Shown: piece by piece, positions 13,687 through 56,415 of the stretch | How the letters are laid out: each line of letters begins with the position of its first letter | How positions within the stretch are numbered: position 1 is the stretch's first letter | Assembly: GCA_022703445.1 (NCBI GenBank) | Contig: JAKLDR010000005.1 | Location: 36,107-100,106 of the forward strand | Length of the DNA stretch: 64,000 nucleotides | Reading direction: 5' to 3' | Source of the DNA: Planctomycetota bacterium | Lineage (GTDB): Bacteria; Planctomycetota; SZUA-567; JAKLDR01 | Notes under the pieces: model-generated | The model's database searches: none | Told to the model about the DNA's origin: nothing | Seen by the model: the letters and a program-made list of their open reading frames with translations, nothing else | Made by a program: the position numbers and the translations under genes

Positions 13687-13756
13687 GTTGAGGGTTGGGG
13701 GTTGGGGGTGGAGGGCTGATAGAACTCATCCTGCTCTCAACCCCCAACCCTCAACC
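13686..13756. terminator. bidirectional stem-loop between convergent AraC and DUF4091 genes
   Basis: Perfect 19-bp stem: GGTTGAGGGTTGGGGGTTG (13686-13704) pairs with CAACCCCCAACCCTCAACC (13738-13756). It lies between the stop at 13684-13686 (+) and the stop at 13761-13763 (-). There is no clear U-tract. Confidence 0.55.
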
Positions 13757-13760: not shown

Positions 13761-16496
13761 TTACTTCCTCCCGGCCACCTCCGCGCAAAGCGCGAAGAGC
13801 CGGTCATCGCGCTCCTGCCAGCCGGAGCACTCCATGGCCAGCCAGCGGTTGCCGGCCCGCGAGCTCTCCTGGCCGCGCAGGAAGTACCGGGCGCGCTCGT
13901 CGAGCAATTCCACGATCTTCCTGTTGAGCTCGGGCGCCACGCGCTTCTCCTCCTGGGCGCGCTCCAGGAAGATGATGGCCTCGGCCACCTGCACGCCCTC
14001 CCGGAACATCTCCATGCGCTGGTTGAAGACCGCCCCGTCCGGACCGGCGCTGAAGAGCGCCGTGGTGCTCTCGCCCGGGCCGACCGCCTTGAAAGTGTCG
14101 AATAGCACCACGGGCTTGCCGCCCTTGTCGCTGGGGATCATCCAGGAGTCGCCGCCCACCCGCCCGAGGCCGTTGAGGTTGCCCTGCAGCGTGGCCTCGC
14201 TGATGAAGCGGTGCATGGCCAGCGTCGAGGTCTCCCGCAGGGAGTCGCCGATGATCACGGACAGGCCCATCCGCGGATTGCCGAACTCGCGCCGCTTGTT
14301 GCCGTTGGTCCAGAAGCGCGGATAGACCGGCCAGGGCCGGCCGCCGCCGTCCGGGTCGTAGGCGAAGCCGCAGCCCCAGACCCACTCGCTGTAGGGCACC
14401 GGCATGCTGACGCCCTTGGCCGTGCCGGCGAAGGCGCTGATGTTGGGGTGGCTGGTCTGCATCCACTTGCCGTCGGGCCAGATGTTCCTGCAGACGTCGA
14501 CGACCGTCGGGTGCGGGCCGACCGCGTAGTTGATGTGGCAAACCGCGGTCACATCCCACCATCCCCGCTTCTCGAGGCGTTTCCGGAGTTCGGCCAGGAC
14601 CGGCTTCCAGAAGGCCTCGTTCTCGGGCGTGCCGTAAGGCGGCTGGGCCATGGGTTCGACCTTGCCGGTGGCCGGGTCAAGGACGCTGACCGGCGCGCCC
14701 TTGGCGATGCCGACGTCCTTGGCGTTGCCCGCGCAGTTCGGCCAGGGATCGAGGCAGAGGATCGCCGGCTTGCCGCAGTTCTTCTCGTAGAGGTCCATGT
14801 ACTTCTCGGCGATGCTGAAGTCGTAGTCATAGGCCGCTTGCCCTGAGCCCGTCGAAGGGTCCGGCTTCCGGACCCAGCGGACCATCGATTCCGAGTTGTT
14901 GAAGCTCGGGCTGTTGGCCACCAGGTGGACCATGCAGAGCTTGTTGCCGACCTCGCCGAAGGCCTTGAGCGACCTGCCCATCAGCTCGAAGTGCTTCTCG
15001 CTCCAGAGCGGGACCTTGTAGTGCCGCGCCACCGAGTCCACCGACTGGAAGATGTTGTGGTGCGTCGTGAAGTCCCGCGCGTCCGGAATCCGCCAGTCGT
15101 TCACCTTGAGCCTGACGGGCACGGAGAACTTCGCCGGGCCGGCGGTGCCCGCGGCTTCGATGGAGAGCGTCGCCTGATACTCGCCGGCTGCGGAGTCGGC
15201 CGGTACCCGGACCGTCACCCACACCGGCACGACTGCGAGTAGGCGGCGGTCGCCCAGCAGCTTGGCCTGGGGGATGTCGGCCGGGAAGTTGCCCTGCAGG
15301 CGGTCGAAGTTCACCCGGCCCAGCGGGTCCCAGTGCGACAGGTTCACGTTCTCGGCCGAGACTCGCTCGGCCCAGCGCACCTGGACGGCGGAGGCCGGGA
15401 TCTGGCCCTTGCCCCCGGTCAGCGCCAACTCCGAGAGGCTGGCCTTCAAGCCTTTTATCGTATCGGCCGAGCTCAGGACGACCTTTCCGGAGAAGGTCCC
15501 GTTGCGCGCGCCGACCATCCGGATGGGCAGGACCTGGCCGCTCTCGCTGGGGTTGACGATGTCGGCGGCCGAGAGCGTCTCGCAGGGCGAGACCGTGGCG
15601 ATCTCGACGGCCGGCGTCGGAGAGTAGTTGGGCGTCAGCCCGTCGCCGCTCGAGGCCGTGAGCCGGGCGGCGGCCGCGAGCGCGTGCGGCCAGACCGCCG
15701 ACTGGCCCGGCCAGGACTTGTCCCCGACCGTCTTCTCGACGGCCAGCTCGTGCACCGGCGCGGCGCGGATCTCCACGGCCAGGACATTGAGCCCCTTGCG
15801 GAGCATCGCGCCCGGGATGACCACGCCGTCGGGCGCGCCCTTGGCCGGGAGCCCCCGGCCACGGACCCTGGCCAGCTCGGCCACGGCCCACTGGTTCTCG
15901 GCGCCCGGCCGGATCTTCCCGTCAGCGGTGATGTAGGCCTCGTCGGCGTAGCGCTCGGCGAGCGTCTCGGGCTCGAGCTTGCCGGCCGGGAGGTGTCCGC
16001 GGGCCAGTTCGGCGCCGTTCACGTAGACGACCGCGCCGCCGAAGTAGGTCAGTGACACCTTGAGGTCCTTGACCGCGGCCGGGTCGGCCACCCGGAACTT
16101 CCCGCGCAGGCAGACCAGGCTGCCCTCCAACGGGTTGGCGGGCCCGTAGGCCGAGGCGCTCGGCCAGCGGTTGAGCGCCGCGGGGTCGGAGATCCGCGGC
16201 CAGCAGGAGTCGTCGAAGTCGACGGCCGCCCAGTCCGCCGGCGGCGGCGCCGAGCCGCGCACCGGCACCGGCTTGCGGTCCTCCTCCTTGAGGTCCTTGC
16301 GCCGGGGCTCGAGCAGGGGCTTGAGCTTGCCGTCCGCTGAGATCAGCGTCGGCGTCCTCCAGCCCTCGAAGACCCGGAAGGAGCCGCGGTTCAGGTCCAG
16401 GACCACGGTCTCGGTCGGGGTCTTGGCCGGCTCGGCGGCGGACCCCGCGCCGGCGAACGCCAGCGCCGACACCAGTGTCAGCATCAGGTGTCTCAT
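13761..16496 (-). CDS. secreted DUF4091/GH123-like glycoside-hydrolase-domain protein, paralog 1 of 4
   Basis: ORF 13761..16700. Start set at MRHLMLTLVSALAFAGAGSA (signal peptide), where the ATG overlaps the upstream stop as ATGA. It has a GH2-sugar-binding-like segment GSLVCLRGKFRV...GGAVVYVNGAELARGHLP, then WVTVRVPADSAAGEYQATLSIEA...KVNDWRIP. The family assignment is from memory and uncertain. Confidence 0.8.
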   Translation of the reverse strand: MRHLMLTLVSALAFAGAGSAAEPAKTPTETVVLDLNRGSFRVFEGWRTPTLISADGKLKPLLEPRRKDLKEEDRKPVPVRGSAPPPADWAAVDFDDSCWPRISDPAALNRWPSASAYGPANPLEGSLVCLRGKFRVADPAAVKDLKVSLTYFGGAVVYVNGAELARGHLPAGKLEPETLAERYADEAYITADGKIRPGAENQWAVAELARVRGRGLPAKGAPDGVVIPGAMLRKGLNVLAVEIRAAPVHELAVEKTVGDKSWPGQSAVWPHALAAAARLTASSGDGLTPNYSPTPAVEIATVSPCETLSAADIVNPSESGQVLPIRMVGARNGTFSGKVVLSSADTIKGLKASLSELALTGGKGQIPASAVQVRWAERVSAENVNLSHWDPLGRVNFDRLQGNFPADIPQAKLLGDRRLLAVVPVWVTVRVPADSAAGEYQATLSIEAAGTAGPAKFSVPVRLKVNDWRIPDARDFTTHHNIFQSVDSVARHYKVPLWSEKHFELMGRSLKAFGEVGNKLCMVHLVANSPSFNNSESMVRWVRKPDPSTGSGQAAYDYDFSIAEKYMDLYEKNCGKPAILCLDPWPNCAGNAKDVGIAKGAPVSVLDPATGKVEPMAQPPYGTPENEAFWKPVLAELRKRLEKRGWWDVTAVCHINYAVGPHPTVVDVCRNIWPDGKWMQTSHPNISAFAGTAKGVSMPVPYSEWVWGCGFAYDPDGGGRPWPVYPRFWTNGNKRREFGNPRMGLSVIIGDSLRETSTLAMHRFISEATLQGNLNGLGRVGGDSWMIPSDKGGKPVVLFDTFKAVGPGESTTALFSAGPDGAVFNQRMEMFREGVQVAEAIIFLERAQEEKRVAPELNRKIVELLDERARYFLRGQESSRAGNRWLAMECSGWQERDDRLFALCAEVAGRK

Positions 16497-17422: not shown

Positions 17423-17438
17423 GCTGGGGCTCCTCGTG

Positions 17439-17542
17439 GTCAGGTGTCAGGTTTCAGGTGTCAGGTGTCAGCACGGAGTCTCTGACACCCCTTCGACGCT
17501 GCTCAGGGCCTTGAGCTTGTCGAAAGGCTGAACACTGGAACC
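17439..17542. repeat. nested-palindrome intergenic repeat, copy 1 (GGTGTCAG/GGTTTCAG words flanking a CCTTCGAC..GCTCAGGG palindrome)
   Basis: Inner palindrome at 17488-17527 (CCCTTCGACGCTGCTCAGGG / CCTTGAGCTTGTCGAAAGG). A second stem GGTGTCAG..CTGACACC and outer arms built from tandem TCAGGTG/TCAGGTT words. Its reverse complement recurs at 28461-28582. Confidence 0.85.
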
Positions 17543-17548
17543 TCTCCG

Positions 17549-20200
17549 TCACTTTACCTCACACGTCTCTTCGGCGGCGTACTTCCGGTCGACGCGCACG
17601 ACGCGGCGGCTGTAGAGGTCGCCGACGTAGATCTTCTTCTCGCTCGCGCCGGCCGAGAGCGGCCAGCCCAGCGGCACCTCCGGCGTGGCGATCAGCGGCT
17701 TCTTGTCCGCCGAGCCCTCCGGCACCCACTGCGAGTCGAAGTTGCCGTAGGCGCCGAACTTGGTTATCTCGTTGCCGGCGTTGTCCAGCACGCGCACGTC
17801 GAACGTGCAGGTGTTGGGGATCACCAGCCGGCCGTAGGCGTCCAGGTCGAAGCGCGGCGAGCGGCAGACGCAGCCGCCCGGCTCCTTCGTGGGGGTGGCG
17901 CCGCTGAACGAGCCGTAGCCCGGATAGGCCCCGGCCACTCCTTCGTATTCGGCCAGGCGGTCCCGCTTGCCCTTGGGCAGGCCGCCGCCCTCCGGCTTGA
18001 ATTTGACCACGCTGCCGATGCCGCTCTGGAAGGCGGCGTCGCCCTCGAAGCCCGCCGGCGGCTTGTAGCCCTCGGGCAGAAGGTTCATGCCCACGTAGAC
18101 GAAGCCCCGCCGGTCCACCTTGAGTCCGCCGCAGGCCCCCGGGACCAGGCCGATCAGCGCGCTGTTGATGCCCCGGTCGGCCAGCGGCCTGAGGTCACCG
18201 TGGTCGGGCTGGGTCTTGAGGCGCTCGATCTGCGCGGTGCAGACCTTCGGGCCGGGGATGAACTTGCCGTCGCGGTCGTAGGTGACCACGTAGTAGTCGC
18301 CCCAGGCGAGCAAGCCCATCGAGTAGAGCCGGCCGTCCCAGCCCAGGCACGAGCCCTTGGTGCAGTAGCCCTGGCCGTAGCGGCCGAAGACCCAGCCGAT
18401 GGTGTCGCTCTTGGTGGCGGCCAGCGGGGCGGGCTTGAGGTCCCGGTCCATCCGCTTGTAGGCGCCGGAGAAACCCGTTTTCCCATCCTGGATGTAGACG
18501 AATCCGTCCGGGCTGACCACCGTGTCGGTGGCGACGAGCGGATCCATCCGACCGTCCTTCATCGCCCCGTTGTACTTGCCGGTGAGGCCAGAGTAGCGGT
18601 AGGTCCGGATCCAGCCGTCGGAGACGTAGACGTCGTCGGTCTCCGGGTCCACGGTGATGCGGTCCACGCCGCGAATGGCCAACGGGTCGCGCTCGCTCAG
18701 GTCCTCGATGATCCTGAACTCGGTGCCGGCGTCCTCGATGCGCAGCAGGCCGTGGCCGGCGTTGCGGCCGTTGACGTTGGCCAGCCAGACCTGGGGCTTG
18801 GCGGCGCCGAAGTCCACGGCCAGGAAGGACTGCTGGTTCTCGGTCGTGCCCTGGAACTCGATCCGGGCCAGCTGCCTGGCGCCGGCCTCGCAGGCCGAGA
18901 ACTTGGCGAGAGTCACCTTGGCCGCCCGGCTGATGACGTAGACCGCGCCGGTTTTGTCGTCGACCACGGCCCCCTGCGCGCCGGGGAAGGGGAGGGCGCC
19001 GGTCTCCTTCCCGGCGGAGTCGAAGCGGCGCACCGCGCCGTTGGCGAAGTCGCAGACGTAGACGTTGCCCTTGGCGTCGACGGTCACGCCCTGGAGGGCG
19101 CTGGTGGCCATGCCGGGCGCCCAGCCGGCCTCGGGGGGGCGGCACTTGTCGGGGAGCGCCACGTCGGCGAAGGTCTCCATGCCCTGGCCGATCTTGTCGA
19201 GCGACATCTTGTAGACCCGCCCATCCGGGAGGTCCGGGTTGAGCTTCTGGCCCTTGTCCGCGACCCGCGCCTTGCCGGTCAGGTAGAGCGTCTTGCCGTC
19301 GGCGGCCACGGCCATGGCCGGCGAGCCGCCGATGGCGCAGTAGTCGGGGAAGCGCTTGTCGCCCTGCGGCCAGAGCGACTCGCCGAAGACGCCGCCGACC
19401 GCGCCGCCGTCCGCCGCGCGCACCCGACAGAGGACCCGGAAGCTCTCATCGATCAGCAGCAGCACGCCGTCGGGCGTGACTGCCCCCAGCTTCAGAGTCA
19501 GCGGACCGTAGGAGCGCGAGTAGCCCTTGGGCTTGGTCTCGTAGAGGTAGGCCCAGAGGCTGCCCTGGTTGCGGGGCACGAGCGCCTCGCCCGGAGCGGC
19601 GATCAGGCCGAAGGGGGCGGCGTCCTCTTTCTTCAAGTTCGCGGGGTAGGGCATGACCGTGCGCAGGTATTTGCCGGTGCGGTCGAAGACCCGGATGTCG
19701 GTCGAGCCGCCGCCGTTGTAGGCCTCCTCGCGGACGTAGAGGTTGCCCGCGGCGTCGAGGACCATGCCGCGCACCGGCGAGTAGCGCACGGTGCAGAGCG
19801 CGTAGGGGCTCGCGCCCACGAAGCCGTCGAAGACCGTCTTCGTCCCGGCGCGGACGCGGACCTTGAAGGGGCCGCCCGCGGCGGGTTTGCCGAAGTCGTC
19901 CTTCCCGTCCCAGACGATCTCCTGGACGAGCCCGGCCTTGAGCGGCTCCGGCGGCGGCTTCGGCCCGCCCAGGACGCCGGCAGCCAGGTGGCAGACGATC
20001 TTGCCGGCCGCGTCCAACACCGCCACCTCCACGTCGGTCGGCGCCGAGACGGTGAAGCTGATCTTCACCTTGCCCTGCCCTGAGCTTGTCGAAGGGTCGC
20101 CTTCCTTCGCGGCGGCCGGCTTGGCGGTGAAGGCCGCCTCGCCGGCGGTGGCCGTCGTAGCCATGATGAGCCCCGTCATCACGATTAGTGCGCTGCGCAT
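17549..20200 (-). CDS. secreted FlgD-Ig-like + NHL/beta-propeller repeat protein, paralog 1 of 2
   Basis: ORF 17549..20293. Start at MRSALIVMTGLIMATTATAGEAAF (SD AGGAGAG). The N-terminal KVKISFTVSAPTDVEVAVLDAAGK...WDGKDD resembles the FlgD Ig-like domain. NHL-like strands follow, e.g. DAKGNVYVCDFANGAVRRFD. Confidence 0.8.
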   Translation of the reverse strand: MRSALIVMTGLIMATTATAGEAAFTAKPAAAKEGDPSTSSGQGKVKISFTVSAPTDVEVAVLDAAGKIVCHLAAGVLGGPKPPPEPLKAGLVQEIVWDGKDDFGKPAAGGPFKVRVRAGTKTVFDGFVGASPYALCTVRYSPVRGMVLDAAGNLYVREEAYNGGGSTDIRVFDRTGKYLRTVMPYPANLKKEDAAPFGLIAAPGEALVPRNQGSLWAYLYETKPKGYSRSYGPLTLKLGAVTPDGVLLLIDESFRVLCRVRAADGGAVGGVFGESLWPQGDKRFPDYCAIGGSPAMAVAADGKTLYLTGKARVADKGQKLNPDLPDGRVYKMSLDKIGQGMETFADVALPDKCRPPEAGWAPGMATSALQGVTVDAKGNVYVCDFANGAVRRFDSAGKETGALPFPGAQGAVVDDKTGAVYVISRAAKVTLAKFSACEAGARQLARIEFQGTTENQQSFLAVDFGAAKPQVWLANVNGRNAGHGLLRIEDAGTEFRIIEDLSERDPLAIRGVDRITVDPETDDVYVSDGWIRTYRYSGLTGKYNGAMKDGRMDPLVATDTVVSPDGFVYIQDGKTGFSGAYKRMDRDLKPAPLAATKSDTIGWVFGRYGQGYCTKGSCLGWDGRLYSMGLLAWGDYYVVTYDRDGKFIPGPKVCTAQIERLKTQPDHGDLRPLADRGINSALIGLVPGACGGLKVDRRGFVYVGMNLLPEGYKPPAGFEGDAAFQSGIGSVVKFKPEGGGLPKGKRDRLAEYEGVAGAYPGYGSFSGATPTKEPGGCVCRSPRFDLDAYGRLVIPNTCTFDVRVLDNAGNEITKFGAYGNFDSQWVPEGSADKKPLIATPEVPLGWPLSAGASEKKIYVGDLYSRRVVRVDRKYAAEETCEVK

Positions 20201-20225
20201 CGGTCTCTCTCCTGTCCAGAACCCG

Positions 20226-20312
20226 GGGGTGTGTGAGCATGTGGGCATGCGAGCGTGTGGGTACGCGAAGCGATTATTCGCACCCCAACTCACTCACACA
20301 CCCACACACTCC
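20226..20312. repeat. intercistronic imperfect palindrome built from GTGTG(G/A)G words, copy 1
   Basis: Left arm GGGGTGTGTGAGCATGTGGGCATGCGAGCGTGTGGGTACG. Right arm CGCACCCCAACTCACTCACACACCCACACACTCC. A related copy sits in inverted orientation at 41713-41803 and shares GTGTGGGTACG. Confidence 0.75.
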
Positions 20313-20326
20313 GTCGCCGTGCTCCG

Positions 20327-23068
20327 TCACTTCCCAGCCGTCCCCGCCACCTCCGCGCAGAGCGCGAAGAGCTTGTCGTCGCGGAGCTGCCAGTCGGAGC
20401 AGTCGGTGACCAGCGACCGAACGCCGCGCCGGGTGGCGTAGTCGCCGCAGTGGAGCCGGAACCGGGCCCGCTCGACGAGCAGGTCGTCGATCCGCTTGGC
20501 CACGTCGGCGCCGACCTTCTTCTCGACGACCGCGCGCTGCAGGAAGATGATGGCCTCGCAGACCTGCACGCCCTCGCGGAACATCTCCATCCTCGCGTTG
20601 AAGGCGGCCCCGTCCGGACCTGGGCTGAAGAGCGCGATGACGTTCTCGCCCGGCCCGGTGCCGCCGACCTCGGAGTCGAACATGGAGTCCCAGTCGTAGC
20701 GGCCCTCGTATCCGCGCCAGGCGCCCTGCCCCTTGGGCAGCGGCCAGGAGTCGCCGCCCACCCGGCCGAGGCCCCGGCATCCGCCCTGGAGTGCCGCCTC
20801 GCTGATGAACCGGTACTGTCCCTGCGGCGAGCTGGTCCGCAGCGCGTCCATCACGCAGGACGCCCCGTAGCGGGGATTGGCCAGGGCGATGGGCGGCGCG
20901 GCGGCCCACGGCTTGGGATAGCCGTTCTTCTGCGGATTGTAGACCGGGCTTCCACGATAGTCAGGGTCGTAGGCCTGGCCGGCGCCCCAAACGTACTCCA
21001 CGCAGGCCACCGGCATGGTGCTCTTGTCCGCCGCCTGGTACGTGGTCATGTACGGGTGGCCGCACTGCAGCCAGCGGCCGTCGGGCCAGATGGCCTTGAT
21101 CGTGGAGACGAACTCCGGGATCGGCGGGCTGGCGTAGTCGTCGTGGCTCACGGCCGTGACGTCGAACCAGCCGCGCTTCTCCAGCCGCTTCCTGAGCTCG
21201 GTCAGCACCGGCTTCCAGAACGCCTCGCTCTCCGGCGTGCCGTAAGCCGGCTGGGGCAGGGCCTCGAGCTTGCCGGTGGCCGGATCCAGGACGGTGACGG
21301 CCAGCCGCGGCCACCCGGACGCGGCCATGGCTTTGCCTCCCCGGGTCTTGTCGAGGTCCCCGACGGCCAGGATCCCCGGCTTGCCGCAGTTCTTCTCGTA
21401 GACGTCCAGGTACTTCTCGACGAGGCTGAAGTCGTAGTCGTATGCACCGTCAGCCTTCTTTACCCAGCGCACGATCGACTCGGTGTTGTTGATGCCCGGG
21501 CTCTTGATCGCCAGGTGGAGCGTGCAGAGCTTGTTGCCCACCTGTTGGAAGGCGGCCATGGACTTGCCGATCAGCTCGAAGTGCTTGTCGCTCCACATCG
21601 GCACCTTGTAGAACTTCGCCAGGGTGTCCTCCGAGGAGTAGATGTTGTTGTGGACGGAGAAGTCCTTCGGGTCCGGCAGGCGCCAGCCGTTGACCTTGAG
21701 CTTGACCGGCACGACGATCTTGACCGGGCCGGCCGCGCCGGCGGCCTCGAGGCTCACCGTCCCCGCGTACTCCCCGGCCGGGGCGTCGGGCGGCACCTTC
21801 ACCGTCACCCAGACCGGCGCGACCGCCATGGCCACCTCGGGGCGCCGGGGGTCCACCGGCACCGGCGGAATCTCCGCGGGCAGTTCAACGAGCAGGCGGT
21901 CGAACCGGTCCCAGCCGGCCCAGCTCAGCTCGGCCCGGGCGTGCTCGGCCAGGCGCAACTGGACCGCCGCAGCCGGGATCTTCCCCTTGCCTGTGGCCTC
22001 GACCAGCTCGGAGGCCGTGGCCTTGAAGCCCTTGATAGCCCCCGAGGAACTCAGCACCACTCTGCCGGAGAAGCTGCCGTTGCGGGCGCCGACCAGGCGG
22101 ATCGGGAAGACGTTCTCGCCGGGGTGCGCGAAATCCCAGGCGAAGTCGGTCTCGGTCGGCGGGACCACCGCCGCCTCGATCCCCGGCGATGACCAGACGC
22201 TGGGGACGAGCCCGGCGGCCGAGGCGCAGGTCACGCGCGCGTCGGTCACCGCGGCGTGCGGCCAGCAGTGCCTGTACTCGCGCAGGTCCACGCCCTTCCA
22301 GGCGGCGGAGCCCTCCACGCAGGCCTCGTGGGCCGGCGCGGCGCGGACCTCGACCGCCACGACGTTGACGCCCTTGCGGAGCATCGCGGCGGGGATCTCC
22401 ACGCCGTCGGCGAAGGCGCCGGGCTTGAGCTCCCGGCCGCGCACCTTGAGGAGCTCGGCGGCGACCTTGGCGTCCTCGCTCATCCGGGCGAGGACCTTGC
22501 CGTCCTTGTCGACGTAGGCCTCGTCGGCGTAGCGCGCTGCCAGCGTATCCGGGCCCAGCTTGCCCTCCGGCAGGTGTCCGCGGGCCAGCTCCGTCCCGTT
22601 GACGTAGACGACCGCGCCGCCCACGTAGCGCAGGAAGAGCTTCAGCCCCCGGACCTGTCCCGGATCGATGACCCGGAACCTGCCGCGCAGACAGACCAGA
22701 TTGCCTTCCAGCGCGCGCCGCCCCGGGTTGTCGATGCCCACATGGATGGCCGCCGCCCCGTCGCGGCCCCGCGGCCAGCCGCTGTCGTCGAACTCGGCGG
22801 CGTTCCACGTGGCCGCCGGGCGGTCCGACTCCAGGACGGGCATCGGCTTGCGGTCCTCGTCCTTCGGCGTGCTGCCCTTGGGCTCGAGCAGAGGCTTGAG
22901 CTTGCCGTCCGCCGAGATCAGCACCGGCGTCTTCCAGCCCAGGAAGACGCGGAAGGAGCCGCTGTTCAGGTCGAGGACCGCCGTCTCACCGGCGGGCTTG
23001 GGGGGCTCGCCGGCAAGGGCGATGGAGCCGGCGATCAACAGGGCCAGGACGGTCGTGACAGCTCTCAT
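20327..23068 (-). CDS. secreted DUF4091/GH123-like protein, paralog 2 of 4
   Basis: 913-aa ORF. Signal peptide MRAVTTVLALLIAGSIALAGEPP. Collinear with paralogs 1, 3 and 4. SD GGAGGA. Only a 9-bp gap from the upstream gene. Confidence 0.85.
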   Translation of the reverse strand: MRAVTTVLALLIAGSIALAGEPPKPAGETAVLDLNSGSFRVFLGWKTPVLISADGKLKPLLEPKGSTPKDEDRKPMPVLESDRPAATWNAAEFDDSGWPRGRDGAAAIHVGIDNPGRRALEGNLVCLRGRFRVIDPGQVRGLKLFLRYVGGAVVYVNGTELARGHLPEGKLGPDTLAARYADEAYVDKDGKVLARMSEDAKVAAELLKVRGRELKPGAFADGVEIPAAMLRKGVNVVAVEVRAAPAHEACVEGSAAWKGVDLREYRHCWPHAAVTDARVTCASAAGLVPSVWSSPGIEAAVVPPTETDFAWDFAHPGENVFPIRLVGARNGSFSGRVVLSSSGAIKGFKATASELVEATGKGKIPAAAVQLRLAEHARAELSWAGWDRFDRLLVELPAEIPPVPVDPRRPEVAMAVAPVWVTVKVPPDAPAGEYAGTVSLEAAGAAGPVKIVVPVKLKVNGWRLPDPKDFSVHNNIYSSEDTLAKFYKVPMWSDKHFELIGKSMAAFQQVGNKLCTLHLAIKSPGINNTESIVRWVKKADGAYDYDFSLVEKYLDVYEKNCGKPGILAVGDLDKTRGGKAMAASGWPRLAVTVLDPATGKLEALPQPAYGTPESEAFWKPVLTELRKRLEKRGWFDVTAVSHDDYASPPIPEFVSTIKAIWPDGRWLQCGHPYMTTYQAADKSTMPVACVEYVWGAGQAYDPDYRGSPVYNPQKNGYPKPWAAAPPIALANPRYGASCVMDALRTSSPQGQYRFISEAALQGGCRGLGRVGGDSWPLPKGQGAWRGYEGRYDWDSMFDSEVGGTGPGENVIALFSPGPDGAAFNARMEMFREGVQVCEAIIFLQRAVVEKKVGADVAKRIDDLLVERARFRLHCGDYATRRGVRSLVTDCSDWQLRDDKLFALCAEVAGTAGK

Positions 23069-23077
23069 GGGCTCCTC

Positions 23078-24355: not shown

Positions 24356-24406
24356 CGTCTCCTCCATTCAGCTCAGTGCCTTAGTGCCTCAGTCCCTCAG
24401 TGCCTT
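24281..24406. repeat. CAGTGCCT-word palindromic element, copy A, spanning a gene boundary
   Basis: Arm 24281-24316 (GTACTGAGGCACCAAGGCACTGAGGCACTTAGTGCG) is complementary to arm 24372-24406 (CTCAGTGCCTTAGTGCCTCAGTCCCTCAGTGCCTT). The 55-nt loop holds the SD and start of the 23078 gene. Arm 2 covers the last 7-8 codons and the stop of the regulator gene. Confidence 0.85.
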
Positions 24407-25496: not shown

Positions 25497-25655
25497 GGTG
25501 CCAACCTCCTGCCAACATAGTACCCCACGCGGCCAGAAGTGTTGGCGGGAAAAAGTGCTTACAAAACCAGCTGGAACTGAGTTCCTCGGTCAACTGCCCG
25601 TGACCATCTGCCACGCAGAGCTTGGCGGCTCCGTTGTGGTTGACAGGCGCCCGGC

Positions 25656-28442
25656 TTATTTGCCGGCTGCTTTCGCCACCTCCGCGCACAGCGCGAAGAG
25701 CCGGTCGTCGCGTTCCTGCCAGTTGGAGCACTCGAACGACTTGTAGTTCTGGAAGGCGCGCAGGTAGTACCGGGAGCGCTCGTCGAGCAGGCCGCCTATC
25801 TTCTTGACGCCGTCGGCTGAGACCTTCTTGTCCTCAAGCGCGCGCTCGAGATACAGGATCGCCTCGCCGACCTGCACGCCCTCGCGGAACATCTCCATGC
25901 GCTCGTTGAAGATGGCCCCGTCCGGGCCGGGGCTGAAGCAGGCCGCTATGGCGTCGCTCATGTCGATGCCGCTGCCGCCGTAGGAGACGCGCACCAGGCG
26001 CTTCTTCTCGCCGGTCGACTGGACCGGCCAGAAATCGCCGCCCAGGTAGCCCAGGCCGCAGATGTTGCCCTGCAGCGCGCCTTCGGTGACCAGACGGTAC
26101 TCGGCCAGCCGCGAGTTGTCGCAGAGGTTGTTCACGAACGACACCCCCTGGCGAGGGAATCCCAGGAAGACGTTCTTGGGCGTGGTCTGCCAGCGCTGGG
26201 GGTACTGCGGAAAGCCTTGGCGCTGGAACTGTCTCTGCCCGTCCTGCCCGATGCGCGCGTCGGGGTCGTAGAGCCCGCCGACGCCCCAGACGCCCTCGGA
26301 GCAGAGCACCGGCATCTTCACGTCCTTGGTCGTCCCCTGGTACTCGCTCGGGAAGGTGTGGGCGGTGTGCATCCACTTGCCGTCCGGCCAGATCTTCTTG
26401 AAGACGTCGACCAGCGACGGGTCGGCGGGCTTGGAGTAGTGCACCCAGCCGAAGGCGGCGACGTCGTACCAGCCGCGCTTGTCCAGGCGCTTCTTGAGCT
26501 CGACGAGCACCGGCCGCCAGAAGGCCTCGTTCTCCGGCGTGCCGAAGTCGGGTTGGGGCATCTCCGTCACCTTGCCGGTGGCCGGGTCGAAGACACTGAC
26601 GTTCTGCACCTTCTGCCCGGCCTTGCTCTTGGCCTCGTTGACCCGCTGCCAGGCATCCAGGCGCAGGACGCCGGGTTTGCCACAAGTCTTTTCGTAGAGC
26701 TCCAGATACTTGTCGAGGTTGGTGAAGTCGTAGTCGTAGCCGCCATCGGCCTTCTTCACCCAGCGGACCAGGCCTTCGCTGTTGCCCAGCGTGAAGCTGT
26801 CGGCCAGCAGGCTGGCAACGCAGATCCTGTTGCCGACCTGCCGGAAGGCGGCCAGCGACTTGCCCATCAGCTCGAAGTGCTTGTCGCTCCACATCGGCAC
26901 GTTGTAGTAGCGCGCCACCGAGTCCGGCGACTGGTAGATGTTGTGGTGGATGACGAAGTCCTTGGGGTCCGGCACCTTCCAGTCGTGAACCTTGAGCTCC
27001 ACCGGCACGGAGAGCTTCGCCGCGGCGCCGTCGGCCTCGACGGTCAGCGTCCCCTTGTACTCGCCGGCCGCGGCGTCGGCCGGCACCTGCACCGTCACCC
27101 AGACCGGCGCGATGGCCTGCTTGCGGTTGCCGACCGGCAGGGCTGTGATGTCCACCGGGAAGTCGGCGAGCAGGCGGTCGAAATAGCCGCCGCCGGCGTG
27201 GCCGTAGCCGCTCGTCGGAATCCAGCTGACGTTGGGCGTCGCCGCCTCGGCCCGGCGGACCTGGATCGCCGTGGCCGGGATCCTGGCCTTGCCATCTGCC
27301 CCGGCGAGGTCGGAGACCGAGGCCTTCAAACCCTTGATGTTCTCCGGGGAGGTCACGGCCACCTTGCCGGAGAAGAAACCGTTGCGCGCGCCGACGATGC
27401 GGATCGGGCGGACCTGCACGCCGGGCAGCGCCAGCTCGTTCGTGAAGACCGTCTCGATCGGCTGGTTGTTGACGATCTGCAAACCGGCCGAGGCGTCGTT
27501 GAGGTCGAGCCCCGCCGGCGTCGGGGCGGTGAGCTTGGCCTCCACCACCATGGCGTGCGGCCACTGGACGTCGCCGGCCCAGGTCACGTTGCCGACGGTC
27601 TTCTCGTAGACCAGCTCGTTGACCGGCGCGGTGTGCACCTCGATGGCGATCACGTTCACGCCCTTGCGGAGCATGGCCGGGGGGATGGCCACGCCGTCGG
27701 CCGCACCCTTGGCCGGGAGGTCCCGCCGCCAGAACTTCAGCCCCTCGAGCATGCCGGGCTTGCACCGCGGATCCTCGTAGTAGCCGTAGATCCAGCCGCC
27801 CCAGTACCCGCGGAACTTGTTGTCCGCGGTGACGTAGGCCTCGTCCGGGTAGCGCGTGGCGAAGGTGTCGAAGGCCAGCTTCCCCTCGGGGAGGTGGCCG
27901 CGGGCGAGCTCGGCGCCGTTGACGTAGACGATCGCCCCGCCGAAGTAGCCCAGGGTCAGCTTGAGGTTCGCGGCCTGGGCCGGGTCGGACACCCGGAAGG
28001 TGCTGCGCAGGCAGACCAGGTTGCCCTCGTACGGGCCGCTCGGCTGATACTTCGGGTCGGTCATGTAGCCGGTGGGATTCTTCACCGCCAGCGCCACCCA
28101 GAGGAGGCGCGGGTTCCAGCTGGGATGGTTGATCTCGAGCTTGGGCCAGGCGCTGTCGTCAAACTCCGCGGTCGCCCAGTTGGCCGCGGGCAGTCCCGAA
28201 GCCACCATCGGCACCGGCTTACGGTCCTCGTCCTTCAACTCCTTGCGCTTGCGCTCCAGGAGCGGCTTGAGCTTGCCGTCGGGCGAGATCAGCGTCGGCG
28301 TCTTCCAGCCGATGAAGGCCCGGAAGGTCGCCTGGTTGAGATCGAGAACCACCGTCTCAGCCGGCGGCTTGGGCGGTTCGCCGGCGAGGGCCGCGGTGGC
28401 CGCAAGGAACCAAGCTGCCGCACAGGTCAGAGCTAGACGCAT
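25656..28442 (-). CDS. secreted DUF4091/GH123-like protein, paralog 3 of 4
   Basis: ORF 25656..28457 (TTG). I prefer ATG 28442 (MRLALTCAAAWFLAATAALAGEPP), which is preceded by GAGGAGG. Very similar to paralog 4 by eye. Confidence 0.85.
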   Translation of the reverse strand: MRLALTCAAAWFLAATAALAGEPPKPPAETVVLDLNQATFRAFIGWKTPTLISPDGKLKPLLERKRKELKDEDRKPVPMVASGLPAANWATAEFDDSAWPKLEINHPSWNPRLLWVALAVKNPTGYMTDPKYQPSGPYEGNLVCLRSTFRVSDPAQAANLKLTLGYFGGAIVYVNGAELARGHLPEGKLAFDTFATRYPDEAYVTADNKFRGYWGGWIYGYYEDPRCKPGMLEGLKFWRRDLPAKGAADGVAIPPAMLRKGVNVIAIEVHTAPVNELVYEKTVGNVTWAGDVQWPHAMVVEAKLTAPTPAGLDLNDASAGLQIVNNQPIETVFTNELALPGVQVRPIRIVGARNGFFSGKVAVTSPENIKGLKASVSDLAGADGKARIPATAIQVRRAEAATPNVSWIPTSGYGHAGGGYFDRLLADFPVDITALPVGNRKQAIAPVWVTVQVPADAAAGEYKGTLTVEADGAAAKLSVPVELKVHDWKVPDPKDFVIHHNIYQSPDSVARYYNVPMWSDKHFELMGKSLAAFRQVGNRICVASLLADSFTLGNSEGLVRWVKKADGGYDYDFTNLDKYLELYEKTCGKPGVLRLDAWQRVNEAKSKAGQKVQNVSVFDPATGKVTEMPQPDFGTPENEAFWRPVLVELKKRLDKRGWYDVAAFGWVHYSKPADPSLVDVFKKIWPDGKWMHTAHTFPSEYQGTTKDVKMPVLCSEGVWGVGGLYDPDARIGQDGQRQFQRQGFPQYPQRWQTTPKNVFLGFPRQGVSFVNNLCDNSRLAEYRLVTEGALQGNICGLGYLGGDFWPVQSTGEKKRLVRVSYGGSGIDMSDAIAACFSPGPDGAIFNERMEMFREGVQVGEAILYLERALEDKKVSADGVKKIGGLLDERSRYYLRAFQNYKSFECSNWQERDDRLFALCAEVAKAAGK

Positions 28443-28460
28443 GATGGACCTCCTCAAGTA

Positions 28461-28582
28461 AGGTTTCAGGTTTCAGTGTTCAGCCTTTCGACAAGCTCAA
28501 GGCCCTGAGCAGCGTCGAAGGGGTGTCAGAGACTGGGCCTGACACCCGAAACCTGACACCCGAAACCTGACACCTGAAACCT
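28461..28582. repeat. nested-palindrome intergenic repeat, copy 2 (inverted relative to copy 1)
   Basis: The reverse complement aligns with 17439-17542. The inner palindrome is at 28484-28523 (CCTTTCGACAAGCTCAAGG / CCCTGAGCAGCGTCGAAGGGG). Confidence 0.85.
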
Positions 28583-28587
28583 CGCTG

Positions 28588-31332
28588 TCACTTCCCGCCC
28601 ATCGCCTTCGCCACCTCCGCGCACAGCGCGAAGAGCCGATCGTCGCGCTCCTGCCAGCCCGAGCCGGCGAAGACATGGAAGGTCGAGCCGTGCTCCTCGG
28701 CCCGGAGCATATGCCGGGCGCGCTCGTCGAGCAGGTCATTGATCTTCTTGGCGACCTCGGGCGAGACCTTCTTGTCCTCCATGGCGCGCTGCAGGAAGAA
28801 GATCGCCTCGCCGACCTGCACGCCCTCGCGGAAGATCTCCATGCGCTCGTTGAAGGCGGCGCCGTCCGGTCCCGGGCTGAAGCAGGCCACGACGGCATCC
28901 TGCATGTCGATGCCCTGGCCGCCGTAGGAGACGCGCACCAGCCGCTTCTTCTCTCCGGTCGACTGAACCGGCCAGAAGTCGCCGCCCAGGTAGCCCAGGC
29001 CCCACAGGTTGCCCTGGATGGTCATCTCGGTGACGGCCTTGTAGGCCGCGAGCCTGGAGCCGTCGTACAGGGCGTTGATGAACTGCACGCCGAACCGCGG
29101 GAAGCCCAGGATGACGCTCTTGGGGCCGTGCCGCCAATGCTGGGGATACTGGTTCTGGTACTTCTTCTGGAAGTACGGGTTGTCCGGGTCGTAGAGGTCC
29201 CCGCAGCCCCAGACGTACTCGTCGCACATGACCGGCATCTTCACGTCCTTGGTCGTCCCCTGGTACTCGAGCGGGCAGGTGTGGGCGGTGTGCATCCACT
29301 TGCCATCGGGCCAGATCTTCTTGAAGACGTCGACCATCTGCGGGTCGGCGGGCTTCGAGTAGTGCACCCAGCCGAAGGCGGCCACGTCGTACCAGCCGCG
29401 CTTGTCCAGGCGCTTCTTGAGCTCGACGAGCACCGGCCGCCAGAAGGCCTCGTTCTCCGGCGTGCCGAACGGCGGCTGGGGCAACTGGTCGACCTTGCCG
29501 GTGGCCGGGTCGAAGACGCTGACGTTCTGGACGGTCTGACCGCTCTTGGCCTTGGCCTCGTTGATCCGCTGCCAGGCGTCCAGGCGCAGGACGCCGGGCT
29601 TGCCGGAGGTCTTCTCGTAGAGATCCAGGTACTTGTCGAGAATGGTGAAGTCGTAGTCATAGGCCGCTTGCCCTGAGCCTGCCGAAGGGTCGGCCTTCTT
29701 GACCCAGCGCACCATGCCTTCGCTGTTGCCCAGCGTGAAGCTGTCGGCCAGCAGGCTGGCGACGCACATCCTATTGCCAACCTGCTTGAAGGCGGCCAGC
29801 GACTTGCCCATCAGCTCGAAGTGCTTGTCGCTCCACATGGGCACGTTGTAGTAGCGGGCCACCGAGTCCGGGGACTGGTAGAAGTTGTGGTGGATGACGA
29901 AGTCCTTGGGGTCCGGCGCCTTCCAGTCGTGAACCTTGAGCTCCACCGGCACGTCGAACTTGGCCGCCGCCGCGCCCTCGGCCTCGACGGTCAGCGTCCC
30001 CTTGTACTCGCCGGCCGCGGCGTCGGCCGGCACCGGCACAGTCACCCAGATCGGCACTATGACCTGCTTGCGGTTGCCGGCCTGGGGGACGCTGGCCGGG
30101 AAGTCGGCGACGAGCCGGTCGAACTGCCCCTGGGCCCAACCGGTCTGCGGCGCGGTCAGCTCCGCCCGGCGGACCTGTACCGCCGCAGCCGGAATCTTGG
30201 CCTTGCCGTCCGCCCCGGTGAGGTCCGAAACGAACGCTTTGAGGTTCCTAACTGCCTCGGCCGAGGTCAGCACCACCTTGCCGGAGAAGACGCCGTTGCG
30301 CGCCCCCACCATGCGGATGGGGTTGAGCTTGGCGCTCAGTGCCGGCGTCTCGTTCACGTAGACCGAGTCGATCGACTGGACGTTGGCCAGCTGGATCCCC
30401 GAGCCCAGGCCCGCACCGTCCAGGCCGGCCGCCGACGGCGCGATCAGCCGGGCGCTCACCACCATGCAGTGCGGGAAGGGCTTCTGGTGTTCGCCGGTCC
30501 AGGTCGTCTTCCCGTCGGTCAGTTCGAAGACCAGCTCGTTGACCGGGGCGGCGCGCACCTCGATGGCGATCACGTTGGCGCCCTTGCGGAGGGCCGAGGA
30601 GGGAATGGCCAGGCCGCCCGGCGCACCATCCTTGCCGGCGAACTCCCGGCGCCGGCCCTTCAGGGCCTCGTTGGTGAACTCCGGGGTCTTGTAGTTGAGG
30701 GTGCCGCCCCGGCTGTCGATGACATAGGGGCGGAACTTCTTGTCCGCGGTGACGTAGGCGTCCTCGGGGTAGGGCGTGGCCATGGTCTCGGGCGCGAGCT
30801 TTCCCTCCTGGAGATGGGCCCGCCCCAGTTCTGCGCCGTTCACGTAGACGACGGCGCCGCCGGTGAAGCCCAGATCGAGCCGGAGGTCCTTGACCTGCGC
30901 GGGGTCGGCGACCTTGAACGTCCCGCGCATGCAGACCAGGTTGCCCTCCAACACGTTCCTCGAGGCGTAGCGCTTGTCGGCATAGGGGGCGCTGGCCATC
31001 CAGCTGTTGACCGTCACCCACTTGTTGCAGCGCGGCCAGACGCTGTCGTCGAACTCCGGCGCGAACCAGTTGGCCGGCGGGGGAGCCGAGGAACGCACGG
31101 CGAGCGGCTTGCGGTCCTCGTCTTTCAACTCCTTGCGCTTGGGCTCGAGCAGGGGCTTGAGCTTGCCGTCCGCCGAGATCAGCGTTGGCGTCTTCCAGCC
31201 CACGAAGGCCCGGAAGGAGGACTGCTCGAGATCCAGGACCACGGTATCCGGGTTGGGCCTGGGCGGTTCGCCGGCGAGGGTCGCCGCCGCCATCAGGAGC
31301 CAGGCTGCCGCGCACGTCAGGATCAGGCGCAT
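28588..31332 (-). CDS. secreted DUF4091/GH123-like protein, paralog 4 of 4
   Basis: The track ORF 28588..32709 is a stop-free read-through. The real start is ATG 31332 (MRLILTCAAAWLLMAAATLAGEPP), preceded by AAGGAG. 914 aa, collinear with the paralogs. Confidence 0.85.
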   Translation of the reverse strand: MRLILTCAAAWLLMAAATLAGEPPRPNPDTVVLDLEQSSFRAFVGWKTPTLISADGKLKPLLEPKRKELKDEDRKPLAVRSSAPPPANWFAPEFDDSVWPRCNKWVTVNSWMASAPYADKRYASRNVLEGNLVCMRGTFKVADPAQVKDLRLDLGFTGGAVVYVNGAELGRAHLQEGKLAPETMATPYPEDAYVTADKKFRPYVIDSRGGTLNYKTPEFTNEALKGRRREFAGKDGAPGGLAIPSSALRKGANVIAIEVRAAPVNELVFELTDGKTTWTGEHQKPFPHCMVVSARLIAPSAAGLDGAGLGSGIQLANVQSIDSVYVNETPALSAKLNPIRMVGARNGVFSGKVVLTSAEAVRNLKAFVSDLTGADGKAKIPAAAVQVRRAELTAPQTGWAQGQFDRLVADFPASVPQAGNRKQVIVPIWVTVPVPADAAAGEYKGTLTVEAEGAAAAKFDVPVELKVHDWKAPDPKDFVIHHNFYQSPDSVARYYNVPMWSDKHFELMGKSLAAFKQVGNRMCVASLLADSFTLGNSEGMVRWVKKADPSAGSGQAAYDYDFTILDKYLDLYEKTSGKPGVLRLDAWQRINEAKAKSGQTVQNVSVFDPATGKVDQLPQPPFGTPENEAFWRPVLVELKKRLDKRGWYDVAAFGWVHYSKPADPQMVDVFKKIWPDGKWMHTAHTCPLEYQGTTKDVKMPVMCDEYVWGCGDLYDPDNPYFQKKYQNQYPQHWRHGPKSVILGFPRFGVQFINALYDGSRLAAYKAVTEMTIQGNLWGLGYLGGDFWPVQSTGEKKRLVRVSYGGQGIDMQDAVVACFSPGPDGAAFNERMEIFREGVQVGEAIFFLQRAMEDKKVSPEVAKKINDLLDERARHMLRAEEHGSTFHVFAGSGWQERDDRLFALCAEVAKAMGGK

Positions 31333-31357
31333 GATCGCTCTCCTTCTTCCTCTCAGG

Positions 31358-56410: not shown

Positions 56411-56415
56411 CGTGT

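What the first reader, a model, noticed from the sequence alone, without database searches (positions are those of the whole stretch)
14835..29688. In-frame 8-codon block (about 7 extra residues, PS(T/A)GSGQA) at the same site in DUF4091 paralogs 1 and 4 but absent from paralogs 2 and 3, discordant with overall similarity
Seen: sense sequence GAC CCT TCG ACG GGC TCA GGG CAA GCG (14835-14858, paralog 1) and GAC CCT TCG GCA GGC TCA GGG CAA GCG (29665-29688, paralog 4), giving ..K(P/A)D-PS(T/A)GSGQA-AYDYDF. Paralogs 2 and 3 read ..KKADGAYDYDF and ..KKADGGYDYDF. By eye paralog 3 is much the closest relative of paralog 4 (tandem neighbours; long identical runs such as SLLADSFTLGNSEG and KRLDKRGWYDVAAFGWVHYSKPADP), yet it lacks the insert. 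The inserted string CCTTCG..GCTCAGGG is one arm of the intergenic palindrome at 17488-17527 and 28484-28523. Inference: a short repeat arm inserted independently at one site, or spread by patchy gene conversion between paralogs 1 and 4, or was precisely lost from paralog 3.
Basis: partly seen in the sequence, partly recalled or inferred. Interest (0 to 1): 0.65.

Follow-up and report, generated by a model that had tools for sequence, protein, structure and literature searches.

The report
Repeat-derived loop insert copied between paralogs
An 8-codon piece of a small palindromic DNA repeat sits in frame at the tip of a surface hairpin in two non-sister glycosidase paralogs; it was most likely copied from one to the other, and the same module marks turns in many other secreted proteins of this Planctomycetota genome.

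Summary
P1 (13761-16496) and P4 (28588-31332) carry PS(T/A)GSGQA at one site; P2 and P3 do not. P1 and P4 are not sisters (bootstrap 0%). P4 groups at 100% with three metagenomic relatives of 73-83% identity, all of which read GAC GGC GGC TAC, so P4 gained the block recently.

The block is one arm of a REP-like palindrome also present in two intergenic hairpins and in an unrelated gene, ORF B. P1 and P4 share more than the arm. Both have the same boundaries, the same net +21 nt, and the non-repeat codons GCG GCC TAT, which replace P4's ancestral GGC GGC TAC. This indicates one event plus a 30-46 nt copy between paralogs, probably P1 to P4.

Independent insertion at this site also occurs. A third paralog of the same genome and a Phycisphaerae homolog carry the module there with different, clean 24-nt junctions.

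More broadly, every clear coding copy found lies in a single reading phase. In this genome 9 of the 10 forward copies tabulated directly follow an Asp codon. In an AlphaFold model the site is a beta-hairpin tip. In other homologs the same tip carries long hairpin repeats.

In-frame palindromic repeats are already known (Rickettsia RPEs, intragenic REPs), so this is a new variant of a known kind.

The parts
13761..16496 (-). P1, a GH123-like (PF13320/DUF4091) paralog of 911 aa; carries the module at residues 547-554
   Evidence: Identical to P0011 from an independent sample.
14835..14858 (-). 24-nt module in P1: CCT TCG ACG GGC TCA GGG CAA GCG = PSTGSGQA
   Evidence: Three of its 8 codons end in A/T, in a gene with flanking GC3 of 0.96.
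14816..14861 (-). Largest stretch of P1 that is P4-like (46 nt, with 2 differences inside the insert). The smallest shared tract is 14829-14858 (30 nt: insert plus GCC TAT).
20327..23068 (-). P2, a paralog without the insert; the site at 21431-21451 reads GAC GGT GCA TAC
25656..28442 (-). P3, tandem neighbour and closest in-window relative of P4 (71% aa); no insert; the site at 26727-26747 reads GAT GGC GGC TAC
28588..31332 (-). P4, a GH123-like paralog of 914 aa; carries the module at residues 549-556
   Evidence: AF2 model with mean pLDDT 85; GH123 fold.
29665..29688 (-). 24-nt module in P4: CCT TCG GCA GGC TCA GGG CAA GCG = PSAGSGQA. It lies at the tip of the beta-hairpin formed by strands 542-545 and 558-561.
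   Evidence: pLDDT below 50 at residues 552-554.
29646..29691 (-). Inferred conversion tract in P4: at least 29659-29688 (30 nt), at most 46 nt. P4 is P3/L164-like outside this stretch.
17549..20200 (-). ORF B, an unrelated secreted FlgD-Ig/NHL beta-propeller protein carrying the same module
20072..20095 (-). 24-nt module in ORF B: CCT TCG ACA AGC TCA GGG CAG GGC = PSTSSGQG. It is a clean 8-codon insertion after the native codons GGC GAC.
   Evidence: 0 mismatches to the 19-mer; most homologs aligned at this site, including the window paralog and L127 (70.5% identity), lack it.
32603..35107 (-). Window paralog of ORF B without the module (KDGD|KVKI, at about 34985)
17488..17527 (.). Intergenic palindrome whose two arms are copies of the module sequence, embedded in a larger hairpin with heptamer-repeat arms (17425-17548)
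   Evidence: folding z-score -2.6.
28484..28523 (.). Second intergenic palindrome of the same family, between the P4 stop and the P3 start, inside a composite hairpin (28443-28590)
   Evidence: folding z-score -4.2.

Best explanation
The block is one arm, a 24-nt module, of a short REP-like palindromic repeat family of this Planctomycetota genome. It became fixed in frame at the tip of a solvent-exposed beta-hairpin of a GH123-like glycosidase. For the P1/P4 pair there was one origin. The module entered one paralog, most likely P1. A patch of 30-46 nt (the module plus the next three codons) was then copied into the other paralog about 15 kb away, most likely P4. The copying would be short-tract ectopic gene conversion or template switching, anchored on the conserved flanks CGCTGGGT and GACTACGACTTCA.

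Shown: the repeat identity of the block, the loop location in a model, the recent gain in P4, and the shared non-repeat flank. Inferred: the copying mechanism, its direction, and neutrality of the insert for the enzyme.

The same module has entered coding DNA many times independently in this and related genomes. It is always in the phase that reads PSTGSG(Q/P)x forward or (P)A(L/V)SxS(N/K)G reverse. In this genome it lies almost always directly 3' of a native Asp codon at a turn, so this hairpin tip is also a recurrent insertion site.
For: Repeat origin:
- The 19-mer occurs as both arms of two structured intergenic palindromes and in frame in ORF B.
- Reverse-orientation copies also occur in coding DNA, which argues for a DNA-level origin rather than a peptide-level one.
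- Three of the 8 module codons end in A/T, against a flanking GC3 of 0.96.

Recent gain in P4:
- P4+P0002 and {P4, P0002, P0003, P0004} each have 100% bootstrap; P1+P4 has 0%.
- P0002, P0003, P0004 and P3 read ADGG(Y/F). The DNA of L164, L083 and P3 is GAC/GAT GGC/GGT GGC TAC.

Single origin for P1 and P4:
- They have the same left boundary, the same net +21 nt, and the same GCG GCC TAT.
- All 3 strictly P4-derived substitutions in the 9 nt after the insert equal P1. The background is 27 P1-matching derived sites over the roughly 2.6-kb alignment, giving a site-specific binomial of about 1e-4.
- Independent insertions of the module at this site have other junctions: L009 is GCC|24 nt|GAC GGC GGC, and L116 is GAC|24 nt ending CCT GGC|GGC GGC TAC.

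Direction:
- The tract ends in Ala-Tyr. P2, which is on P1's side of the tree, natively has Gly-Ala-Tyr, while the whole P4 clade has Gly-Gly-Tyr.
- P1 is a long branch with no relative above 57% identity, so its insert can be old.

Loop location: AF2 places the insert between strands 542-545 and 558-561, with the lowest confidence at 552-554.

General pattern:
- Across 1.2 Mb of loci there are 13 forward and 6 reverse clear coding copies, all in one phase.
- In about 165 kb of the window's own genome there are 11 forward coding copies. Nine of the 10 tabulated follow GAC.
Against: - The two inserts differ at 2 of 24 positions (ACG versus GCA), so the copy is not very recent, or the donors differed.
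- Flanking identity between P1 and P4 is patchy (runs of 9-13 nt; genes 68% identical overall). That is short for RecA-type conversion.
- A gene-wide scan for clusters of P1-like derived sites in P4 is not significant on its own (P = 0.13). The statistical case therefore depends on the cluster lying directly next to the shared indel.
- The site does receive independent insertions, as L116 in the same genome shows. A deterministic insertion mechanism could therefore mimic shared junctions.
- The direction rests on one codon and on branch lengths.
- No close P1 relative is available to date the P1 insertion.
Confidence: 0.7

Rival explanations
1. Two independent insertions: the same repeat arm was inserted separately into P1 and P4 at a hot-spot site, with no transfer between the paralogs.
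For: The site is hit independently elsewhere. L116 (same genome, about 30% identical paralog) and L009 (a Phycisphaerae MAG) carry the module at this hairpin tip while their nearest relatives lack it. The ORF B site was also hit at least twice. The module almost always lands right after GAC. The P1 and P4 inserts differ at 2 of 24 bases.
Against: Independent events at this site give clean 24-nt insertions that leave GGC GGC TAC untouched. P1 and P4 instead share a net +21 nt and the non-repeat codons GCG GCC TAT, which replace P4's ancestral GGC GGC TAC. No other module copy is followed by GCGGCCTAT.
Confidence: 0.12
2. Ancestral insert with precise losses: the block was present in the ancestor of the four paralogs and was cleanly deleted, or converted away, in P2, P3 and others.
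For: Palindromic and repeat inserts are prone to deletion. In the CALGYR genome the orthologs of P3 and P2 (P0006, P0023) carry a homologous long hairpin at this site that P3 and P2 lack, so loss or overwriting does happen here.
Against: It would need separate losses in P0002, P0003, P0004, the P3/P0006 lineage, the P2/P0023 lineage and many others, each restoring GGC GGC TAC. Only P1 and P4 have this block among the homologs searched with P4 and P1 and in the 215-sequence alignment. The AT-ending codons argue for a young insert.
Confidence: 0.03
3. Functional peptide tag: PSTGSG(Q/P)x after Asp is a selected peptide motif, for example a glycosylation, processing or flexible-turn signal in secreted proteins. 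Its spread, single reading phase and Asp context would then reflect selection on the protein rather than neutral tolerance. This reading is compatible with conversion as the vehicle.
For: All clear forward coding copies are in one of three open frames (13 of 13). Nine of the 10 tabulated in this genome follow Asp. The host proteins examined have signal-peptide-like N termini. Coding copies outnumber intergenic ones in the DNA sampled.
Against: Reverse-orientation copies encode an unrelated peptide, (P)ALSPS(N/K)G, at similar turn sites. This points to a DNA element filtered for loop-compatible residues. The orthologs lack the insert. No matching motif was found in the literature search. The AF2 model gives a disordered tip.
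Confidence: 0.1

Closest known systems
Rickettsia palindromic elements (RPEs) inserted in frame in protein-coding genes
   Same: A palindromic repeat family found both between genes and in frame inside unrelated genes. The inserts are absent from orthologs, encode a conserved peptide, and sit where the fold tolerates them (review PMC10969869).
   Different: RPEs are about 100-150 bp and occur in AT-rich Rickettsia. Here the unit is a 24-nt single arm (occasionally both arms, about 45 nt) in a 70% GC Planctomycetota genome. It is locked to one phase, almost always follows an Asp codon, and recurs at the same turn in paralogs.
Intragenic REPs (GTAG- and CGTC-tagged REP superfamilies; Di Nocera et al. 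2013, PMC3733652)
   Same: Short palindromes of 20-40 nt that are mostly extragenic but also found inside genes, including in the PVC bacterium Opitutus terrae. They are argued to be neutral because they lie in loops or linkers.
   Different: No consistent GTAG or CGTC tag is seen at an arm end here. In the DNA sampled, coding copies outnumber intergenic loci. An associated RAYT transposase was not looked for.
Ectopic (interparalog) gene conversion in bacterial multigene families
   Same: A short patch whose local history (P1 with P4) contradicts the whole-gene tree (P4 with P0002 and P3). It is bounded by recipient-type sequence on both sides, between same-strand paralogs 15 kb apart.
   Different: The tract is very short (30-46 nt), and the genes are only 68% identical at the DNA level. 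A template switch on short conserved anchors is as plausible as classical RecA-dependent conversion.
Mobile GC-rich hairpins inserted into coding regions of yeast mitochondrial genes ('byps', bypassed by the ribosome) - recalled from memory, not checked here
   Same: Small hairpin elements that repeatedly colonise coding sequences.
   Different: Those elements are skipped during translation. Here 12 of the 13 long inserts examined at the site, and all modules, keep the frame, so they are presumably translated. One long hairpin (L165) carries a frameshift.

Membership tests
GH123 / PF13320 (former DUF4091) glycoside hydrolase-like proteins | Pfam GH123_cat match above the gathering score | tested here: met
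   67-84 bits against a cut-off of 23.1 for all four paralogs; also PF22680.
GH123 / PF13320 (former DUF4091) glycoside hydrolase-like proteins | Fold similarity to solved GH123 enzymes | tested here: met
   BvGH123 5l7v, E = 2e-30, target TM-score 0.72; CpNga123 5fqf.
GH123 / PF13320 (former DUF4091) glycoside hydrolase-like proteins | Conserved catalytic Asp-Glu pair and beta-N-acetylgalactosaminidase activity | not tested
REP / REPIN repeats | Short (20-40 nt) imperfect palindrome able to form a stem-loop | tested here: met
   the intergenic copies 17488-17527 and 28484-28523 fold, with z-scores of -2.6 and -4.2 for the composite hairpins.
REP / REPIN repeats | Many copies per genome, predominantly extragenic | tested here: inconclusive
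   About 165 kb of this genome holds 13-14 coding arms and 2 intergenic palindromes. The whole genome could not be scanned, and the sample is biased towards these gene clusters.
REP / REPIN repeats | GTAG or CGTC tetranucleotide tag at one end (PMC3733652) | tested here: not met
   Read from the sequences: GACG/CGTC occurs inside some arms only (P1, L087, L134b) and not at a fixed end. There is no GTAG.
REP / REPIN repeats | Cognate RAYT (Y1 HUH transposase) gene flanked by the repeats | not tested
   The window ORFs scanned were chosen for other reasons. No genome-wide search was possible.
RPE-like in-frame palindromic inserts | Same repeat in frame in unrelated proteins and absent from their orthologs | tested here: met
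   GH123-like proteins, ORF B family, PK280_11405 family and others. Orthologs without it.
RPE-like in-frame palindromic inserts | Insert lies on the protein surface or in a loop | tested here: met
   for P4 (hairpin tip, low pLDDT). For the other hosts this is inferred only from D-G and G-G turn contexts.
RPE-like in-frame palindromic inserts | Element length of about 100-150 bp, family-specific to Rickettsia | tested here: not met
   The module is 24 nt, so this is an analogue, not a member.
Interparalog gene conversion | Local similarity contradicts the whole-gene phylogeny | tested here: met
Interparalog gene conversion | Shared derived substitutions beyond the indel, bounded by recipient-type flanks | tested here: met
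   GCG GCC TAT in P4 against GGC GGC TAC in L164 and P3, and GGT GGC TAC in L083.
Interparalog gene conversion | Significant fragment in a genome- or gene-wide permutation test (GENECONV-type) | tested here: inconclusive
   gene-wide P = 0.13. The site-specific probability is about 1e-4 (from one search counts). GENECONV itself was not available.

The most novel reading that the evidence does not exclude
The 24-nt unit is not just a tolerated fragment of a REP. It would be a targeted coding-sequence insert: a module placed by a sequence- or structure-specific mechanism directly 3' of Asp (GAC) codons at Asp-Gly or Gly-Gly turn codons. That would explain why it is always in one phase and repeatedly hits the same turn in different paralogs and different genomes. 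It might also serve as a peptide tag on secreted proteins. Under this reading, long heptamer-armed hairpins use the same entry point in the GH123-like hairpin tip.
Probability: 0.2. Interest if true: 0.8.

Novelty: new variant of a known kind. Interest (0 to 1): 0.55.

Why it matters
The locus shows, with sequence-level detail, how a few codons of non-coding repeat DNA can enter a protein and then spread between distant paralogs. The result is a character that contradicts the gene tree, so small indels cannot be assumed to be reliable phylogenetic markers in multigene families.

It also points to a repeat family in Planctomycetota that colonises coding DNA in a single phase, next to Asp codons at turns, and returns to the same sites. 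If that pattern reflects targeting rather than selection alone, it would be a new way of generating loop diversity in secreted enzymes, and the mechanism could be followed up experimentally. It matters for annotation too: these modules and hairpins inside genes can break assemblies and gene calls. P1 is split over two contigs in the NCBI MAG, and P0048 is called as two ORFs.

Tried and rejected
- **Literature search for the repeat's three-frame peptides** (FDKLRAG, PSTSSGQA and others): no paper found.
- **Rfam scan of the whole window**: no family matched.
- **Terminator and promoter scan of 13-33 kb**: no enrichment, and the palindromes are not classical T-tailed terminators.
- **An mRNA structure formed by the coding insert**: P4 z = -0.55 and P1 z = -1.8, neither convincing.
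- **Gene-wide clustering of P1-like derived sites in P4**: not significant alone (P = 0.13). The largest cluster lies in a poorly aligned N-terminal segment.
- **Closer P1 relatives to set the direction of transfer**: none above 57% identity.
- **Presence/absence polymorphism inside the 90% clusters of P1 and P4**: none; all members that cover the site carry the block.
- **About 20 independent insertions at the hairpin tip**: this reading was abandoned. The long hairpins of P0006, P0023 and L031b are homologous across non-sister paralogs (73% identity against 77% in the flanks). All long inserts seen at DNA level are followed by [FY][ST][YFH]DF, so part of the scatter comes from transfer or loss between paralogs.
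- **Loss from P3**: rejected.
Full report
**What is there**

The window is a ~70% GC segment of a Planctomycetota MAG. NCBI names the proteins 'MAG TPA... [Planctomycetota bacterium]', with locus tags PK280_.

Four paralogs lie on the minus strand:
- P1, 13761-16496
- P2, 20327-23068
- P3, 25656-28442
- P4, 28588-31332

All four match Pfam GH123_cat (formerly DUF4091) and Glyco_hydro_123_N_2. An AlphaFold2 model of P4 (mean pLDDT 85) superposes on solved GH123 beta-N-acetylgalactosaminidases. They sit in a glycan-utilisation cluster with a GH127 enzyme, a GntR/LacI-type regulator and beta-propeller proteins.

P1 reads GAC CCT TCG ACG GGC TCA GGG CAA GCG GCC TAT. P4 reads GAC CCT TCG GCA GGC TCA GGG CAA GCG GCC TAT. 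P2 reads GAC GGT GCA TAC and P3 reads GAT GGC GGC TAC. The net difference is +21 nt.

P3 and P4 are 71% identical; every other pair is 51-57%. The 18-mer occurs three times in the window against 0.06 expected. Its 19-mer consensus matches one arm of each of the intergenic palindromes at 17488-17527 and 28484-28523, and those palindromes sit in significantly structured composite hairpins.

The third coding copy is a perfect 19-mer in an unrelated secreted protein, ORF B (17549-20200). There it is a clean 8-codon insertion (PSTSSGQG, 20072-20095) that most homologs aligned at the site lack, including a paralog in the window.

**Phylogeny**

In a tree of 33 family members, P4 groups with three metagenomic proteins (P0002 83%, P0003 76%, P0004 73% identity) at 100% bootstrap. 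P3 groups with P0006 at 100%, and P2 with P0023 at 100%. P1+P4 is never recovered.

Only P4 has the block in the P4 clade. The DNA of P0002 (L164), P0003 (L083) and P3 is GAC/GAT GGC/GGT GGC TAC. The block therefore arose on the terminal P4 branch. An ancestral insert with losses would need many precise deletions.

P1 has no relative above 57% identity, so the age of its insert is unbounded.

**One event or two in P1 and P4?**

The two genes share more than the repeat arm:
- the same left boundary, directly after GAC;
- the same net length, with one Gly codon missing compared with a clean 24-nt insertion;
- the same three following codons, GCG GCC TAT.

These codons are not repeat sequence. 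In P4 they replace the ancestral GGC GGC TAC. Of 104 strictly P4-derived substitutions in the gene, 27 match P1, and three of those lie in the 9 nt right after the insert. With a looser definition of derived, it is four. At that pre-specified place this has a probability of about 1e-4.

A gene-wide cluster scan is not significant by itself (P = 0.13). The argument therefore rests on the cluster lying next to the shared indel.

Outside a stretch of at most 46 nt (29646-29691), P4 is again like P3 and L164.

Insertions of the same module at this site that are clearly independent look different:
- L009, from a Phycisphaerae MAG whose sister P0043 lacks it, is GCC|24 nt|GAC GGC GGC.
- L116 is GAC|24 nt ending CCT GGC|GGC GGC TAC.

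Both leave the native codons intact.

I conclude that P1 and P4 share one origin through a 30-46 nt copy between paralogs. The direction P1 to P4 is favoured. The tract ends in Ala-Tyr, which resembles the native Gly-Ala-Tyr of P2 on P1's side of the tree. The whole P4 clade has Gly-Gly-Tyr, and only P4's gain can be dated as recent. The two inserts differ at 2 of 24 bases, so the copy is not brand new.

**The wider pattern**

Exact protein look-ups show that loci L087, L116 and L134 come from the same MAG as the window. L167 and L168 were fetched with PK280-named proteins, and L123 and L166 are assigned to it less directly.

In about 165 kb of this genome there are 11 forward coding copies of the module, 2-3 reverse coding copies, and only two intergenic palindromes. 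Nine of the 10 forward copies tabulated sit directly 3' of a GAC (Asp) codon, at D-G, D-K or G-G contexts typical of turns.

Across 1.2 Mb of related loci, 13 forward coding copies all read PS(T/A)(G/S)SG(Q/P)x and 6 reverse copies all read A(L/V)SxS(N/K)G. None uses the other open frames.

Three GH123-like paralogs of this one genome (P1, P4 and L116) carry the module at the same hairpin tip. Two ORF B paralogs carry it at the same N-terminal site. Other turns of the family are also hit more than once: P4 positions ~175, ~375, ~646 and ~852.

Three of the module's 8 codons end in A or T, in genes with GC3 of about 0.95. This fits a young arrival from non-coding DNA.

**The site itself**

In the AF2 model the insert forms the tip between strands 542-545 (VRWV) and 558-561 (YDYD). 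It has the lowest confidence of that region.

Of 215 family members, about 20 carry something extra exactly there. Besides the 24-nt module, these are long, strongly folding DNA hairpins (-42 to -89 kcal/mol). Their arms are heptamer-type repeats (GGTGTCA, GGTTCAG, GGGCGAG), the same kinds that flank intergenic palindromes in the window.

These are not all independent events. P0006, P0023 and L031b are non-sister paralogs of one genome, yet they share a homologous hairpin. Between P0006 and P0023 it is 73% identical, against 77% in the flanks. Their window orthologs P3 and P2 lack it.

All long inserts seen at DNA level are followed by [FY][ST][YFH]DF rather than the usual Y[DK][YH]DF. Transfer and erasure between paralogs, helped by the very conserved flanks, therefore seems to be common at this site. 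P1/P4 is one instance of it.

One hairpin (P0048, L165) carries a frameshift, after which the gene continues intact in another frame.

**How it most likely works**

A REP-like palindrome family proliferates in these genomes. Single arms, and rarely both arms, become fixed inside genes only where they keep the frame and encode small polar residues at exposed turns. Short patches are then exchanged among the many paralogs.

Whether the single phase and the Asp-codon context come from selection alone or from a targeted insertion mechanism cannot be decided with these data. No function of the peptide is indicated. Reverse copies encode an unrelated peptide at similar sites, which argues against a peptide-level role.

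**Comparison with what is known**

In-frame palindromic repeats are established for Rickettsia RPEs (review PMC10969869). They are also described for intragenic REPs, including in the PVC bacterium Opitutus terrae (PMC3733652).

The present family lacks a fixed GTAG or CGTC end tag, and its RAYT status is untested, so I do not file it as a REP sensu stricto. Interparalog conversion is also well known.

What is unusual here:
- the very small unit (24 nt);
- the strict reading phase;
- the Asp-codon context;
- recurrence at identical turns in paralogs and across genomes;
- a clean example of such an insert being copied between 55%-identical paralogs.

**Verdict**

Gene conversion is supported, loss from P3 is not, and independent insertion is true for other homologs but not for this pair. 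The finding is a new variant of a known kind, of moderate interest.

Noticed in passing
L001 4517-4642, L146 2320-2463, L004 4666-4821, L006 4513-4668, L031 7387-7536, L015 4546-4671, L025 3736-3879: At the same beta-hairpin tip, other GH123-like homologs carry in-frame DNA hairpins encoding roughly 21-31 extra residues (MFE -42 to -89 kcal/mol). Their arms are heptamer-type repeats (GGTGTCA, GGTTCAG, GGGCGAG), translated as VSGVQVSG...PDTRNLTPDT, KVQGS...PEPRTLNP and GEGRG...PSPLAP.
   Followed up: partly
L165 5090-5450 (protein P0048): One such hairpin insert contains a frameshift in its right arm. The gene continues intact in another frame and is called as two ORFs. This could be a recent pseudogene, an assembly error in the repeats, or frameshifting.
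   Followed up: partly
window 13686-13756, 17425-17548, 28443-28590, 31346-31461: Intergenic composite hairpins between same-strand genes. Heptamer-repeat arms (GGTTGAG/GGTTGGG, GTGTCAG/CTGACAC, or the CTCCCCT/GGGGAG type) in two cases enclose the CCTTCGAC...GTCGAAGG palindrome. They have no T-tail and no Rfam match.
   Followed up: partly
L087 3478-3496, L040 6095-6113, L139 3385-3403; proteins P0038, P0041, P0081 (P4 position ~175): A second recurrent site in the family. After GHLP, several homologs carry the reverse arm (P)ALSPS(N/K)GP, and one (P0081) carries the forward arm PSAGSGQA. Further repeat-derived inserts, some with both arms, lie at P4 positions ~375 (L031 6892, L052 4111), ~646 (L021 4942) and ~852 (L087 5473-5515).
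   Followed up: partly
L134 393-416 and 4953-4976, L166 15831-15854, L096 7826-7849: Paralogs and homologs of ORF B carry the module. L134 4953 and L096 have it at the same N-terminal site as window ORF B, and L134 393 has it at a second turn of the Ig-like domain. The position of the L166 copy within its protein was not mapped. L028 has a degenerate PSTSEGPAP at that second turn.
   Followed up: partly
All long inserts at the hairpin tip: Every homolog with a long hairpin insert seen at DNA level reads [FY][ST][YFH]DF after it, instead of the usual Y[DK][YH]DF. In some (L004, L001) the flanking codons extend the DNA stem (GTGAAG...CTTCAC).
   Followed up: no
window 13761-16496 (P1) versus NCBI proteins HOX05905.1 and HOX08119.1: In the NCBI MAG, P1 exists only as two partial proteins on different contigs (PK280_05850 and PK280_17115). 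That assembly therefore breaks inside this gene.
   Followed up: no
window 50000-60000: A segment of lower G+C (0.59-0.65, against about 0.70 elsewhere) encodes a PD40 beta-propeller protein (50865-52769) and an ankyrin-repeat protein (57879-59894). It may have been acquired horizontally.
   Followed up: no
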